NCBI RefSeq assembly: GCF_036507355.1
Contig: NZ_AP027877.1
Length of the DNA: 64,000 bases
Strand: one strand, 5' to 3'
DNA from: Escherichia coli
GTDB lineage: Bacteria; Pseudomonadota; Gammaproteobacteria; Enterobacterales; Enterobacteriaceae
This document shows, piece after piece, positions 11,303 through 44,930 of this stretch. A program made the translations under genes and the position numbers. How positions within the stretch are numbered: position 1 is the first letter of the stretch; each line of letters starts with the position of its first letter. The notes beneath the pieces were generated by a model. The model was not told the DNA's origin. It made no database searches and saw only the letters and a program-made list of their open reading frames with translations.

Positions 11303-11432
11303 AATGTCTGCCGCGTGATGTCTGTCACGCGGTATTTCGTTTCGTCACGTCAAAACTGACGACAGCCTGTTTTTCGTCAGAGTTTTGAATAAATAGTGCC
11401 CGTAATATCAGGGAATGACCCCAAATAAAATG

Positions 11433-11448
11433 TGGCATAAAAGATGCA
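11433..11448 (+). promoter_or_regulatory. sigma-54 (-24/-12) promoter of fdhF, with FhlA-type upstream repeats around 11330-11390
   Basis: TGGCATAAAAGATGCA matches TGGCAC-N5-TTGCA; upstream repeated TCGTCA/TGACGA motifs. Confidence 0.5.
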
Positions 11449-11499
11449 TACTGTAGTCGAGAGCGCGTATGCGTGATTTGATTAACTGGAGCGAGACCG

Positions 11500-13647
11500 A
11501 TGAAAAAAGTCGTCACGGTTTGCCCCTATTGCGCATCAGGTTGCAAAATCAACCTGGTCGTCGATAACGGCAAAATCGTCCGGGCGGAGGCAGCGCAGGG
11601 GAAAACCAACCAGGGTACCCTGTGTCTGAAGGGTTATTATGGCTGGGATTTCATTAACGATACCCAGATCCTGACCCCGCGCCTGAAAACCCCCATGATC
11701 CGTCGCCAGCGTGGCGGCAAACTCGAACCTGTTTCCTGGGATGAGGCACTGAATTACGTTGCCGAGCGCCTGAGCGCCATCAAAGAGAAGTACGGTCCGG
11801 ATGCCATCCAGACGACCGGCTCCTCGCGTGGTACGGGTAACGAAACCAACTATGTAATGCAAAAATTTGCGCGCGCCGTTATTGGTACCAATAACGTTGA
11901 CTGCTGCGCTCGTGTCTGACACGGCCCATCGGTTGCAGGTCTGCACCAATCGGTCGGTAATGGCGCAATGAGCAATGCTATTAACGAAATTGATAATACA
12001 GATTTAGTGTTCGTTTTCGGGTACAACCCGGCGGATTCCCACCCAATCGTAGCGAATCACGTAATTAACGCTAAACGTAACGGGGCGAAAATTATCGTCT
12101 GCGATCCGCGCAAAATTGAAACCGCGCGCATTGCTGACATGCACATTGCACTGAAAAACGGCTCGAACATCGCGCTGTTGAATGCGATGGGCCATGTCAT
12201 TATTGAAGAAAATCTGTACGACAAAGCGTTCGTCGCTTCACGTACAGAAGGCTTTGAAGAGTATCGTAAAATCGTTGAAGGCTACACGCCGGAGTCGGTT
12301 GAAGATATCACCGGCGTCAGCGCCAGTGAGATTCGTCAGGCGGCGCGGATGTATGCCCAGGCGAAAAGCGCCGCCATCCTGTGGGGCATGGGTGTAACCC
12401 AGTTCTACCAGGGCGTGGAAACCGTGCGTTCTCTGACCAGCCTCGCGATGCTGACCGGTAACCTCGGTAAGCCGCATGCGGGTGTAAACCCGGTTCGTGG
12501 TCAGAACAACGTGCAGGGTGCCTGCGATATGGGCGCGCTGCCGGATACGTATCCGGGATACCAGTACGTAAAAGATCCGGCTAACCGCGAGAAATTCGCC
12601 AAAGCCTGGGGCGTGGAAAGCCTGCCTGCTCATACCGGTTATCGCATCAGCGAGCTGCCGCACCGTGCAGCGCATGGCGAAGTGCGTGCCGCGTACATTA
12701 TGGGCGAAGATCCGCTGCAAACTGACGCGGAGCTGTCGGCAGTACGTAAAGCCTTTGAAGATCTGGAACTGGTTATCGTTCAGGACATCTTTATGACCAA
12801 AACCGCGTCGGCGGCGGATGTTATTTTACCGTCAACGTCGTGGGGCGAGCATGAAGGCGTGTTTACTGCGGCTGACCGTGGCTTCCAGCGTTTCTTCAAA
12901 GCAGTTGAACCGAAATGGGATCTGAAAACGGACTGGCAAATCATCAGTGAAATCGCCACCCGTATGGGTTATCCGATGCACTACAACAACACCCAGGAGA
13001 TCTGGGATGAGTTGCGTCATCTGTGCCCGGATTTCTACGGTGCGACTTACGAGAAAATGGGCGAACTGGGCTTCATTCAGTGGCCTTGCCGCGATACTTC
13101 AGATGCCGATCAGGGGACTTCTTATCTGTTTAAAGAGAAGTTTGATACCCCGAACGGTCTGGCGCAGTTCTTCACCTGCGACTGGGTAGCGCCAATCGAC
13201 AAACTCACCGACGAGTACCCGATGGTACTGTCAACGGTGCGTGAAGTTGGTCACTACTCTTGCCGTTCGATGACCGGTAACTGTGCGGCACTGGCGGCGC
13301 TGGCTGATGAACCTGGCTACGCACAAATCAATACCGAAGACGCCAAACGTCTGGGTATTGAAGATGAGGCATTGGTTTGGGTGCACTCGCGTAAAGGCAA
13401 AATTATCACCCGTGCGCAGGTCAGCGATCGTCCGAACAAAGGGGCGATTTACATGACCTACCAGTGGTGGATTGGTGCCTGTAACGAGCTGGTTACCGAA
13501 AACTTAAGCCCGATTACGAAAACGCCGGAATACAAATACTGCGCCGTGCGCGTCGAGCCGATCGCCGATCAGCGCGCCGCCGAGCAGTACGTGATTGACG
13601 AGTACAACAAGTTGAAAACTCGCCTGCGCGAAGCGGCACTGGCGTAA
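11500..13647 (+). CDS. fdhF: formate dehydrogenase H (selenocysteine-containing molybdoenzyme), with in-frame UGA at codon 140
   Basis: Two track ORFs (11500-11919 and 11968-13647) are in the same frame, separated only by TGA at 11917-11919; N-terminal Cys cluster CPYCASGC; total 715 codons. Confidence 0.9.
11917..11960 (+). promoter_or_regulatory. selenocysteine insertion element (SECIS hairpin) immediately 3' of UGA-140
   Basis: UGACACGGCCCAUCGGUUGCAGGUCUGCACCAAUCGGUCGG forms the stem-loop known for fdhF. Confidence 0.7.
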
Positions 13648-13662
13648 TACAGTCCTTTCTAC

Positions 13663-13689
13663 AGCCTCCTTTCGGAGGCTGTTTTTTTA
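13663..13689 (+). terminator. rho-independent terminator of fdhF
   Basis: AGCCTCC-TTTCGG-GGAGGCT hairpin followed by TTTTTTT. Confidence 0.6.
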
Positions 13690-14430: not shown

Positions 14431-14600
14431 GGTAGGCCTGATAAGACGCGTTAAGCGTCGCATCAGGCGTTGATGTCGGATGCGGCGTAAACGCCTTATC
14501 CGACCTACAAAATCACGCTAAATCAGGCTATTGCGCTGTCTGACGTAGGCCTGATAAGACGCACCAGCGTCGCATCAGGCATCCACACATTGCCGGGGGA
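14431..14600. repeat. REP/BIME cluster (repetitive extragenic palindromes)
   Basis: Repeated GCCTGATAAGACGC...GCATCAGGC and GCCGGATGCGGCGTAAACGCCTTATCCGACCTAC motifs between convergent yjcO and gltP. Confidence 0.6.
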
Positions 14601-43268: not shown

Positions 43269-43349
43269 GCGATGGTTCTCCAGGTTTACGGGCAGGTGGT
43301 TAAAACACAATAAACCGGAAGAAGGCGAAGATCGAGTGGATGTTCAAAG

Positions 43350-44378
43350 TCAGTCGGGAAGTTGATGAAGAATTTGCCCCAGTCGCTCTTGCAGCGACCC
43401 CGAAACCGAAAGATAAGGAATGTTCCTGCGCGATAATTCCTGTTCGTACCACGCCTGCTGCCGCGCGCGAAACGCCTCTCCTTGCCGGGTGCCATCCTGC
43501 ACAAAGGGAAATTCCGCGCCGCAAAGCACCACCAGAGAGTATTCCCGCTCCGCCAGCTGGTGAAGTTCTTGCGGGGCATGACCATATTGATCAAGGGTAT
43601 AGAACAAGGTCGTGAGTGGCGATGTGTCACATATAAGATAGCGATTAGCTTCTGCTTGTTGTTCCCGACGTACCTGTTCGCGGGCGATATGCAACAAATC
43701 GTCTGCGGTTAAAACACCATTTTTCTCTTCCCAATAGTCGCGACCAAATTCAGCGACATACGCCGTATCGAGCACGTCCGCCAGTGCTTTTGAAAGTGTG
43801 CTCTTACCGGTTGATTCGCCACCAAGCAGACAGATACGGCGAACGAAACTGCGATAAACGTCGTGCGCCAGCATGTAGCGATAACGGTGAACGTCGGAAC
43901 GAATCAGCGTTCCCGAAGGTGATTTATCGCCAAGTGGACGCTGTAATCGAACGTGTTCAACAGGTTGGGCAAAACGCAGTGCCAACACTTTAGCAAAACC
44001 GTCACCATAATCTTCTGCGGTAAATACAGCGTGTGGGCGGCAACGTAATACCTGCAGGCACAGCGTCGCCACATAATGACGATGGATGTCGGCATCGGCA
44101 TCATTATGCGGTATGGCAGGTAAGTTATAACGCGCGATCAGTTCGGGAGTCAGTACCAGAACCATCGCTCGTGGGAAGCGCACTTGCAGCCACGTCAGGC
44201 GCTTTTCAGGTTCACAGTCAGGCATTTCCGGCACGGAATAACTGATGATGAACAGTTCTTCACATTGTGCCAGCGCGGTATTAATCAACCGTTCATGACC
44301 ACAATGCAAAGGCGCGAATTTGCCAACCACCAGTCCCGTTACGAAAGGCTTCATGATGCCCGCAGCTCCTTGCGCCAC
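43350..44378 (-). CDS. NadR-like bifunctional NMN adenylyltransferase / ribosylnicotinamide kinase lacking the N-terminal HTH domain
   Basis: 342 aa ORF with nucleotidyltransferase motif GKFAPLHCGHERLI and Walker A GGESTGKSTL in the same order as NadR; alternative start at 44354 overlaps upstream stop as ATGA. Confidence 0.7.
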   Translation of the reverse strand: MAQGAAGIMKPFVTGLVVGKFAPLHCGHERLINTALAQCEELFIISYSVPEMPDCEPEKRLTWLQVRFPRAMVLVLTPELIARYNLPAIPHNDADADIHRHYVATLCLQVLRCRPHAVFTAEDYGDGFAKVLALRFAQPVEHVRLQRPLGDKSPSGTLIRSDVHRYRYMLAHDVYRSFVRRICLLGGESTGKSTLSKALADVLDTAYVAEFGRDYWEEKNGVLTADDLLHIAREQVRREQQAEANRYLICDTSPLTTLFYTLDQYGHAPQELHQLAEREYSLVVLCGAEFPFVQDGTRQGEAFRARQQAWYEQELSRRNIPYLSVSGSLQERLGQILHQLPD

Positions 44379-44908
44379 TGATACAAACCATGCCAGGCGT
44401 TAATCCAGAACAGGAAATATAAACCGGCGGTCAGGTTTAAACCGCGAGTCATATACAGTGGAACCGCCAGGGTATTCACCGCTAACCAGACGTACCAGTT
44501 TTCGATCCTTCTTCCCATCAACATGAATTGCGCCAGAACGCTGAAGGTCAAAATCAACGAATCCAGCCAGGGGGCCCAGGCATTGGTAAAGGTGTGGAGC
44601 AAAAAGCCGTAGCCGCCTGCCACGACAACGGCACAGAGTAACAAGAGGAAAAAGTGACTGGCTTGCGTCCGACGCACTGGCAAGACATCGCCACCCTGAC
44701 CTTTCAGCCAGTGGATCCAACCGGTGATGCTGGTCGCGATGAAGAATAACTGGAGCGTGACATCGGCATAGAGTTGCACGGACCAAAAAACCCAGCCATA
44801 AAGCATGCTACCAATTATGCCGATCCACCACGTATGCACATTGTTTCTGGCAGCCAGCCAGACGGAAACCGCGTATGCCAGACACGCGGCGATTTCTGAA
44901 TAAGACAT
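44351..44908 (-). CDS. PnuC-family nicotinamide riboside transporter homologue (short form)
   Basis: 185 aa multi-TM ORF with PnuC-like motifs (WIHW, ENWYVWL, WINAWHGLYQW). Confidence 0.7.
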   Translation of the reverse strand: MSYSEIAACLAYAVSVWLAARNNVHTWWIGIIGSMLYGWVFWSVQLYADVTLQLFFIATSITGWIHWLKGQGGDVLPVRRTQASHFFLLLLCAVVVAGGYGFLLHTFTNAWAPWLDSLILTFSVLAQFMLMGRRIENWYVWLAVNTLAVPLYMTRGLNLTAGLYFLFWINAWHGLYQWRKELRAS

Positions 44909-44930
44909 TGTCCCTCCCTGGAGACGGATA

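What the first reader, a model, noticed from the sequence alone, without database searches (positions are those of the whole stretch)
11917..11960. fdhF selenocysteine recoding site: in-frame UGA-140 plus SECIS hairpin
The ORF track splits fdhF in two, but both parts are in the same frame and separated only by TGA at 11917-11919, followed directly by a stem-loop-forming sequence. This is the classic bacterial selenocysteine insertion context, so the gene is intact (715 codons) and not a pseudogene. Upstream there is a good sigma-54 -24/-12 element (TGGCATAAAAGATGCA) and FhlA-type repeats.
Basis: partly seen in the sequence, partly recalled or inferred. Interest (0 to 1): 0.35.

Follow-up and report, generated by a model that had tools for sequence, protein, structure and literature searches.

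The report
E. coli fdhF selenocysteine recoding site

Summary
Frame 11500-13647 (+) has one internal stop, TGA at 11917-11919 (codon 140), and encodes 715 residues matching PDB formate dehydrogenase H (1AA6/1FDO) at all 714 standard positions; the PDB chain has its nonstandard residue at 140. The segment after the UGA scores 87.1 bits on Rfam SECIS_2 (gathering 70, E 8.5e-19) and is base-for-base the K-12 sequence. It has the published determinants: 11-nt spacer, 17-nt apical stem-loop, U17, and G23/U24 in a GGUC loop. Hairpin stability alone is unremarkable (z about -1.3). The support is comparative: in 63 distinct orthologous sequences G15:C31 and U18:A29 covary, while U17 and the loop never change. 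All 15 differences from K-12 after the UGA are synonymous. The frame stays open 574-605 codons past the UGA in 77 of 81 scorable loci. So it is not a pseudogene. The sigma-54 element (11433-11448) equals a ChIP-seq site in K-12 and is conserved in 38 of 48 orthologous loci. The "FhlA-type repeats" exist and lie in the only conserved upstream block (11341-11388), but a published FhlA matrix does not single them out. Verdict: already known, low interest.

The parts
11500..13647 (+). fdhF coding sequence (formate dehydrogenase H, 715 residues including Sec140)
   Evidence: Translation has one internal stop only. NCBIfam TIGR01591 Fdh-alpha 1095.7 bits against a cutoff of 666. Identical at all 714 standard residues to PDB 1AA6/1FDO/1FDI/2IV2/7Z0T. 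Annotated fdhF in 5,419 of 5,426 complete E. coli genomes.
11917..11919 (+). UGA codon 140, recoded as selenocysteine
   Evidence: In frame. It aligns with the nonstandard residue X at position 140 of PDB FDH-H. The preceding peptide TNNVDCCARV equals the in-vitro Sec-peptide of PMC4513850.
11912..11966 (+). SECIS element, full Rfam SECIS_2 extent (outer helix, lower stem and apical stem-loop)
   Evidence: RF01988 87.1 bits, gathering 70, E 8.5e-19, full model 1-55. MFE structure identical to the Rfam consensus. Identical to K-12.
11931..11947 (+). Minimal 17-nt apical stem-loop GGUUGCAGGUCUGCACC, starting 11 nt after the UGA. U17 = 11933 (bulged), loop GGUC = 11938-11941, G23 = 11939, U24 = 11940.
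   Evidence: Positions read directly from the sequence against the determinants summarised in PMC8659212. In 63 distinct orthologous sequences U17 and the loop are invariant, and G15:C31 and U18:A29 covary.
11433..11448 (+). sigma-54 (-24/-12) promoter TGGCATAAAAGATGCA; GG at 11434-11435, GC at 11446-11447
   Evidence: Ranks 4th of about 128,000 positions with the RpoN matrix. Same 17-mer as ChIP-seq site OS41 upstream of fdhF in K-12, PMC4591121. Conserved at -53 to -74 from the ATG in 38 of 48 orthologous loci.
11341..11388 (+). Conserved upstream block TTCGTCACGTCAAAACTGACGACAGCCTGTTTTTCGTCAGAGTTTTG with TCGTCA/TGACGA repeats. Inferred to be the FhlA upstream activating sequence, about -118 to -71 from the inferred start site.
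   Evidence: Repeats. It is the only strongly conserved stretch upstream of the promoter in 41 enterobacterial sequences. The best FhlA-matrix hit, CGTCAAAACTGACG at 11348-11361, scores 8.4 and ranks 89th in the window. FhlA dependence of fdhF is taken from PMC3844500 and PMC7658346.
11488..11491 (+). Shine-Dalgarno-like GGAG, 8 nt before the ATG
   Evidence: Read directly from the sequence.
13661..13689 (+). Intrinsic-terminator-like hairpin ACAGCCTCCTTTCGGAGGCTGT plus T-run, 14 nt after the fdhF stop
   Evidence: Terminator scan: 9 pairs, 6 of them G-C, followed by TTTTTTT. Identical in K-12.

Best explanation
This is the fdhF gene of Escherichia coli (or a very close relative). Its UGA at codon 140 is recoded as selenocysteine by the bacterial SECIS mechanism. 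The mRNA segment directly after the UGA folds into a hairpin. Its 17-nt apical stem-loop (bulged U17, G23/U24 in a GGUC loop, 11 nt from the UGA) is bound by the C-terminal domain of the elongation factor SelB carrying Sec-tRNA(Sec) and GTP. When the ribosome reaches the UGA it unwinds the lower stem, and the tethered SelB complex delivers Sec-tRNA(Sec) to the A site ahead of release factor 2. Ribosomes that fail to insert Sec are terminated by RF2. In K-12, with this exact sequence, about 30-40% of ribosomes read through. The product is the 715-residue molybdopterin/4Fe-4S enzyme FDH-H, with Sec140 at the catalytic position occupied by the nonstandard residue in the solved structures. Transcription starts from a sigma-54 promoter 52-67 nt upstream of the ATG and is activated by the formate-responsive enhancer-binding protein FhlA, which is inferred to bind the conserved repeat block about 70-120 nt further upstream. 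Shown here: the sequence anatomy, the family matches, identity to K-12, covariation, purifying selection past the UGA, and promoter conservation. Taken from the literature on the identical K-12 sequence: SelB binding, Sec insertion and its efficiency, and sigma-54 occupancy. Inferred: the FhlA site assignment, the transcription start near 11459, and a working sel machinery in this particular genome.
For: Single internal in-frame TGA. SECIS_2 at 87.1 bits, above the gathering score of 70. The predicted fold equals the Rfam consensus. The SECIS, promoter and leader are identical to K-12 MG1655. The protein is identical to PDB 1AA6/1FDO, which has X at residue 140. TIGR01591 scores 1095.7 bits. 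The gene is present and annotated as fdhF in 5,419 of 5,426 complete E. coli genomes. Published determinants U17, G23, U24, the 11-nt spacing and the 17-nt stem-loop at positions 15-31 (PMC8659212) are all present when read off the sequence. Covariation in 63 distinct orthologous sequences: G15:C31 is GC 49, UA 10, UG 2, CG 1; U18:A29 is UA 50, AU 9, CG 2; 91.2% of cells pair against 21-49% when partners are slid; 0 of 500 shuffles reach the covariation score. Some compensations combine a synonymous change on one side (Ser TCG to TCT, Val GTT to GTA) with an amino-acid change on the other (Gln to Lys, His to Leu). Purifying selection past the UGA: 15 synonymous and 0 nonsynonymous differences from K-12 in codons 141-715. 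The frame stays open 574-605 codons after the UGA in 77 of 81 scorable loci. Recoding of this sequence was measured at 30-40% in vivo and in vitro, with a peptide matching the window's translation (PMC4513850). The sigma-54 site equals ChIP-seq peak OS41 (PMC4591121), and the Salmonella ortholog is bound and sigma-54/FhlA-dependent (PMC3844500).
Against: Hairpin stability is not significantly better than shuffled controls (z -1.2 to -1.4). The lower stem shows little covariation, and one of its pairs (A12:U34) is unpaired in 41 of 63 sequences; part of the 5' side was also fixed by the search pattern. The window holds no tRNA gene and nothing in it was identified as a sel gene, so the presence of selA, selB, selC and selD in this genome is assumed, not shown. 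The FhlA matrix does not distinguish the upstream repeats from background (rank 89). The window carries an IS600 insertion in mdtN that no complete E. coli genome shares, so it may come from an IS-rich lineage in which partner genes such as hyc or fhlA could be defective. That would affect the enzyme's use, not the recoding mechanism.
Confidence: 0.97

Rival explanations
1. fdhF is a pseudogene here: the TGA is a nonsense mutation, only a 139-residue fragment is made, and the downstream frame is decaying.
For: A mechanical ORF call splits the gene. The window comes from a lineage with at least one IS-disrupted gene, mdtN::IS600.
Against: The same TGA is present in K-12 and in every aligned ortholog. 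Downstream of it there are 15 synonymous and 0 nonsynonymous differences from K-12, and no further stop for 575 codons. The protein is identical to the crystallised enzyme, whose residue 140 is nonstandard.
Confidence: 0.01
2. The hairpin is incidental, a by-product of codon choice in a G+C-rich conserved peptide, and the UGA is read through by near-cognate tRNAs (Trp or Cys) without a dedicated signal.
For: The folding energy is within about 1.3 standard deviations of shuffled sequence. SECIS-independent UGA read-through of about 5-8% is reported (PMC4513850).
Against: Compensatory changes keep the apical stem paired across families, including synonymous changes that compensate for amino-acid changes. 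U17 and the GGUC loop are invariant even at third-codon positions. The covariance-model score is well above Rfam's gathering threshold. The PDB structures have a nonstandard residue at 140, not Trp or Cys.
Confidence: 0.01
3. The main role of the UGA-SECIS is regulatory: it acts as a selenium-dependent gate that mostly terminates translation, and full-length enzyme is a minor outcome.
For: About 60% of ribosomes fail to insert Sec and are released by RF2, and efficient recoding needs sufficient selenium (PMC4513850).
Against: This is a property of the same mechanism, not an alternative to it. The full-length product is the crystallised active enzyme, and the downstream frame is under strong purifying selection.
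Confidence: 0.01

Closest known systems
E. coli K-12 fdhF (b4079) UGA-140 with the fdhF SECIS (Rfam RF01988 SECIS_2)
   Same: Base-for-base identical over the SECIS (11912-11966), the promoter, the leader and the terminator. The protein is identical. The flanking genes mdtP and yjcO are the same.
   Different: There are 16 synonymous substitutions in the CDS and two intergenic substitutions, at 11321 (T for G) and 11424 (A for C). Neither intergenic change touches the -24/-12 element or the conserved upstream block.
fdnG / fdoG SECIS elements of E. coli and other bacterial SECIS families (e.g. Rfam RF01989 SECIS_3)
   Same: Same principle: an in-frame UGA followed directly by a SelB-binding hairpin inside the coding sequence of a formate dehydrogenase catalytic subunit.
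   Different: Different hairpin sequence and family. SECIS_3 scores only 35.8 bits here against a gathering score of 63. fdnG and fdoG are not in this window.
FhlA/sigma-54 formate regulon promoters (hyc, hyp, hydN-hypF, fdhF)
   Same: A GG-N10-GC promoter with an upstream enhancer. fdhF is listed as sigma-54-bound in E. coli and as FhlA- and sigma-54-dependent in Salmonella and Proteus.
   Different: None was detected. The exact FhlA contacts were not verifiable with the literature held here.

Membership tests
Bacterial SECIS, fdhF type (Rfam RF01988 SECIS_2) | In-frame UGA inside an otherwise open reading frame | tested here: met
   Only TGA 11917-11919 and the terminal TAA are in frame.
Bacterial SECIS, fdhF type (Rfam RF01988 SECIS_2) | Covariance-model score at or above the curated gathering score | tested here: met
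   87.1 bits against 70, E 8.5e-19, full-length match 1-55.
Bacterial SECIS, fdhF type (Rfam RF01988 SECIS_2) | Hairpin starting directly 3' of the UGA, with a 17-nt apical stem-loop 11 nt from the UGA, U17, and G23/U24 in the loop | tested here: met
   Positions 15-31 are GGUUGCAGGUCUGCACC (11931-11947), with U17 = 11933 and G23/U24 = 11939/11940. Criteria as summarised in PMC8659212.
Bacterial SECIS, fdhF type (Rfam RF01988 SECIS_2) | Structure supported by compensatory changes in orthologs | tested here: met
   G15:C31 and U18:A29 covary; 26 double-change cells against 6.6 in shuffles. The lower stem is largely uninformative. The data favour bulged U17 over the bulged U18 drawn by Rfam and the MFE fold.
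Bacterial SECIS, fdhF type (Rfam RF01988 SECIS_2) | Hairpin thermodynamically more stable than chance | tested here: inconclusive
   z = -1.40, -1.23 and -1.29 for the 44-, 55- and 40-nt segments; 17 to 27 of 200 shuffles fold as well.
Bacterial SECIS, fdhF type (Rfam RF01988 SECIS_2) | SelB binding and Sec insertion; selA, selB, selC and selD present in the genome | not testable with these tools
   No tRNA gene in the window. Experiments exist for the identical K-12 sequence (PMC4513850; PMC7590224).
Formate dehydrogenase H (NCBIfam TIGR01591 Fdh-alpha; PDB 1AA6) | Profile score above the curated cutoff over the full length | tested here: met
   1095.7 bits against 666.25, residues 6-685 on profile 1-672.
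Formate dehydrogenase H (NCBIfam TIGR01591 Fdh-alpha; PDB 1AA6) | The UGA aligns with the catalytic selenocysteine of the solved enzyme | tested here: met
   Position 140 of 1AA6 is X; all other 714 residues are identical.
sigma-54 dependent, FhlA-activated promoter | -24 GG / -12 GC element with 10-nt spacing at a suitable distance from the start codon | tested here: met
   11433-11448 ranks 4th in the window. It equals the K-12 ChIP-seq motif OS41. It is conserved in 38 of 48 orthologous loci.
sigma-54 dependent, FhlA-activated promoter | Upstream FhlA binding sites (UAS) | tested here: inconclusive
   A conserved repeat block lies at 11341-11388. The FhlA matrix from PMC7658346 gives its best hit at 11348-11361 with a score of 8.4, rank 89 in the window, and the bare consensus is no more frequent than chance. 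The primary footprinting papers are not held.

The most novel reading that the evidence does not exclude
The window comes from an IS600-bearing lineage whose mdtN::IS600 junction is found in none of 5,426 complete E. coli genomes, which suggests a Shigella- or EIEC-like genome. Many such strains make no gas from formate (my own knowledge, not tested here), yet fdhF, its SECIS, promoter, upstream block and terminator are perfectly preserved with only synonymous change. This could mean that FDH-H is kept for a role independent of formate hydrogenlyase in that lineage.
Probability: 0.08. Interest if true: 0.25.

Novelty: already known. Interest (0 to 1): 0.05.

Why it matters
It matters mainly for annotation. 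A tool-free or naive ORF caller splits fdhF in two and may flag it as a pseudogene, and this check shows the gene is intact. One small by-product: comparative data from 63 distinct orthologous sequences support the experimentally derived drawing (U17 bulged, U18 paired with A29) over the register drawn by the Rfam consensus and the minimum-free-energy fold.

Tried and rejected
- **Folding energy as a test:** the z-scores are about -1.3, so it does not discriminate.
- **FhlA IUPAC consensus TGWCN6GWCA:** 75 hits against 66 expected, so it is uninformative.
- **FhlA weight matrix:** the best upstream hit ranks 89th, which cannot confirm FhlA sites.
- **Primary papers:** Liu et al. 1998 (PMC147357) and Wang & Gunsalus 2003 (PMC180993) are not held, so the SECIS determinants are cited through the review PMC8659212, and the FhlA UAS position rests on inference plus conservation.
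- **Residue 'U':** protein tools reject it, so Cys was substituted at position 140 for the searches.
- **K-12 locus L002:** it was not exported to the script machine, so the comparison was done through DNA alignment.
- **Pseudogene reading:** rejected on dN/dS and frame conservation.
- **Locus L020 (Rhizobiaceae):** excluded from the covariation set as a chance pattern match, with 30 of 60 differences and a stop 4 codons after the TGA.

Full report
**1. The observation**

The window at 11917-11919 reads TGA. Translating 11500-13647 on the + strand gives 716 codons with exactly two stops: this TGA at codon 140 and the terminal TAA at 13645-13647. The 44 nt from the UGA fold into a hairpin of -14.9 kcal/mol. 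The 55-nt stretch 11912-11966 folds at -19.7 kcal/mol into exactly the Rfam consensus structure.

These energies lie only 1.2-1.4 standard deviations below dinucleotide-preserving shuffles, and 17 to 27 of 200 shuffles fold as well.

**2. What it is**

- **RNA family:** Rfam SECIS_2 (RF01988) matches 11912-11966 over its full length at 87.1 bits, against a gathering score of 70, with E 8.5e-19. It is one of only three gathering-level RNA hits in the 64-kb window.
- **Genomic distribution:** megablast finds the 2.4-kb region in 5,419 of 5,426 complete E. coli genomes. It is annotated fdhF and flanked by mdtP and yjcO.
- **Protein:** with Cys standing in for residue 140, the translation scores 1095.7 bits on NCBIfam TIGR01591 (cutoff 666). 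It is identical at all 714 other positions to PDB formate dehydrogenase H (1AA6, 1FDO, 1FDI, 2IV2, 7Z0T), whose deposited sequence has the nonstandard residue X exactly at position 140.
- **Comparison with K-12 MG1655:** the SECIS, the -24/-12 element, the leader and the terminator are identical. The intergenic region differs at two bases, 11321 and 11424.

**3. SECIS anatomy against published determinants**

Numbering from the U of UGA, the review PMC8659212 (citing Liu et al. 1998) describes four features:
- a 40-nt element;
- a minimal 17-nt apical stem-loop at positions 15-31, 11 nt from the UGA;
- a bulged U17;
- G23 and U24 in the loop, with U17 and G23 as SelB contacts.

Read off the window, positions 15-31 are GGUUGCAGGUCUGCACC (11931-11947). 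U17 is 11933, and G23 and U24 are 11939 and 11940 within the GGUC loop. All features are present.

PMC4513850 measured recoding of this very sequence at 30-40% in vivo and about 40% in vitro, with RF2 terminating only those ribosomes that failed to insert Sec. Its in-vitro peptide ...TNNVDCCARV-Sec equals the window's translation before the UGA.

**4. An independent comparative test**

A DNA pattern back-translated from CARV-U-HGP was searched in one genome per species. It constrains nothing beyond the eighth nucleotide after the UGA. These gave 63 distinct ungapped 60-mers once the window was added and one chance hit removed.

Results on that alignment:
- The GGUC loop and U17 never vary.
- With the Rfam structure, 90.5% of cells pair, against 22-49% when partners are slid by 1-3 columns.
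- Redrawing the apical stem as in the literature (U17 bulged, U18 paired with A29) raises double-change cells from 15 to 26 and the covariation score from 0.115 to 0.142. None of 500 shuffles reaches either value.
- The U18:A29 pair is UA 50, AU 9, CG 2, with 2 unpaired. The alternative U17:A29 pairing has 11 unpaired cells and no compensatory change.
- G15:C31 is GC 49, UA 10, UG 2, CG 1.
- In Pasteurellaceae the compensation combines synonymous changes (Ser TCG to TCT, Val GTT to GTA) with amino-acid changes on the other strand of the stem (Gln to Lys, His to Leu). That is the signature of selection on RNA pairing within a coding sequence.

Two caveats apply. The sequences are phylogenetically related, and the first 16 columns were constrained by the search pattern. 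The lower stem is largely uninformative, and one of its pairs is unpaired in 41 of 63 sequences. This fits the literature view that the apical part is the essential one.

**5. Not a pseudogene**

The window carries an IS600 insertion in mdtN (see section 7), so gene decay in this lineage is a real possibility and was tested.
- Between the window and K-12 there are 16 substitutions in fdhF and all are synonymous. Fifteen of them lie downstream of the UGA.
- Against strain AMSHJX01 there are 6 substitutions, all synonymous.
- Across species, the frame remains open for 574-605 codons after the UGA in 77 of the 81 loci where it could be scored.

The downstream 575 codons are therefore translated and under purifying selection.

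**6. Promoter and activator sites**

TGGCATAAAAGATGCA lies at 11433-11448 with GG-N10-GC spacing.
- With the RpoN matrix printed in PMC7658346 it ranks 4th of about 128,000 positions in the window.
- The 17-mer GTGGCATAAAAGATGCA is listed as sigma-54 ChIP-seq site OS41 upstream of fdhF in K-12 (PMC4591121).
- The Salmonella ortholog TGGCATAAAACATGCA is sigma-54-bound and listed as FhlA-dependent (PMC3844500). The same sequence occurs in the Salmonella locus fetched here.
- The element sits at -53 to -74 from the ATG, with a score of 10 or more, in 38 of 48 loci that have 139 codons before the UGA. It is absent in Pasteurellaceae, Budviciaceae and Shewanella.

Upstream, the window has TTTCGTCA twice and the inverted pairs CTGACGA/TCGTCAG and TCAAAACT/AGTTTTGA. 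In an alignment of 41 sigma-54-bearing upstream regions, the only strongly conserved stretch besides the promoter corresponds to 11341-11388, while the sequence on either side drifts. With a start site inferred near 11459, this block lies at about -118 to -71, the expected range for an enhancer.

However, the 14-column FhlA matrix gives its best hit there (CGTCAAAACTGACG, 11348-11361) a score of only 8.4, rank 89 in the window. The bare consensus is no more frequent than chance. The assignment to FhlA therefore rests on conservation, position and the literature statement that fdhF is FhlA-dependent, not on a direct test. A terminator-like hairpin with a T-run follows the stop codon at 13661-13689.

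**7. Context and lineage**

The window runs from the phn operon through yjcS, mdtNOP, fdhF, yjcO, gltP, nrf, acs, soxRS, ssb, uvrA and dnaB to pspG and beyond.
- It is 93-99% identical to strain AMSHJX01.
- It carries an IS600 copy in mdtN whose junction no complete E. coli genome shares.
- It carries an accessory segment between tyrB and alr that is present in 868 of 5,426 genomes.

The source is thus a lineage outside that collection, possibly Shigella- or EIEC-like. None of this touches fdhF.

**8. Verdict**

The finding is correct and is the founding example of bacterial selenocysteine recoding. It is already known and of low interest beyond preventing a pseudogene mis-call.

Three things remain unshown for this particular genome and cannot be tested in the window:
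- the presence of selABCD;
- the integrity of the FHL partner genes;
- actual selenium incorporation.

Noticed in passing
window 5952-7215 (target duplication GTT at 5949-5951 and 7216-7218): A 1,264-bp IS600 copy, 99.9% identical to annotated IS600 elements, is inserted in mdtN and disrupts the mdtNOP efflux operon just upstream of fdhF. None of 5,426 complete E. coli genomes shares the junction, so the window comes from a lineage outside that collection, possibly Shigella- or EIEC-like.
   Followed up: partly
window 43347-44929: A 1.58-kb accessory segment lies between tyrB and alr, annotated elsewhere as an AAA-family ATPase plus a PnuC-like nicotinamide riboside transporter. It is present in only 868 of 5,426 E. 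coli genomes, with a best identity of 98.3%.
   Followed up: partly
alignment A2, columns 22-23 and 34 (window 11933-11934 and 11945): The Rfam SECIS_2 consensus and the MFE fold pair U17 with A29 and bulge U18. The comparative data instead support U18:A29 pairing (UA 50, AU 9, CG 2) with an invariant bulged U17, as in the experimental literature.
   Followed up: yes
loci L015, L016, L026, L048, L051 (Morganella, Hafnia, Edwardsiella, Proteus, Providencia), SECIS positions 29-32: These fdhF orthologs read GCAGCG instead of GCACCA, which breaks the G16:C30 pair. The apical stem may pair in a shifted register (U17-G30, G16-C31), which would move or remove the bulged U.
   Followed up: no
window 48988-49003 (-): TGGCATGATTCTTGTA ranks 6th in the window with the RpoN matrix and matches the known pspG sigma-54 promoter, ChIP-seq site OS40 of PMC4591121.
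   Followed up: yes
window 9745-9760 (-), inside mdtO: The best RpoN-matrix hit in the whole window (TGGCAGACGTGTTGCT, 15.2 bits) is intragenic and antisense to mdtO. It was not found in the main text of the sigma-54 ChIP-seq paper.
   Followed up: partly
window 32280-32420 (+) and 14435-14505 (-): There are gathering-level Rfam hits to the sRNA sraL (151.5 bits, overlapping the 3' end of soxR on the other strand) and to naRNA4 (a REP-derived element between yjcO and gltP). The window has about 112 nt more than strain AMSHJX01 at the latter site.
   Followed up: no
loci L056, L105, L107: Three fdhF-like loci (L056 is one of two copies found in Cedecea neteri) have an in-frame stop only 64, 291 or 95 codons after the UGA. 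These could be pseudogenes, a second recoded codon or assembly errors.
   Followed up: no
loci L029, L034, L117 (Pasteurellaceae), L042, L064, L066 (Budviciaceae), L077 (Shewanella): These orthologs keep the UGA and a SECIS but have no sigma-54 -24/-12 element upstream, so their fdhF is presumably transcribed and regulated differently.
   Followed up: no
window 11309-11334: The terminator-like hairpin after mdtP (CCGCGTGA/TCACGCGG) includes the conserved GTCAC motif at 11323-11327. The window-specific substitution at 11321 (T where K-12 and AMSHJX01 have G) falls in its loop.
   Followed up: no
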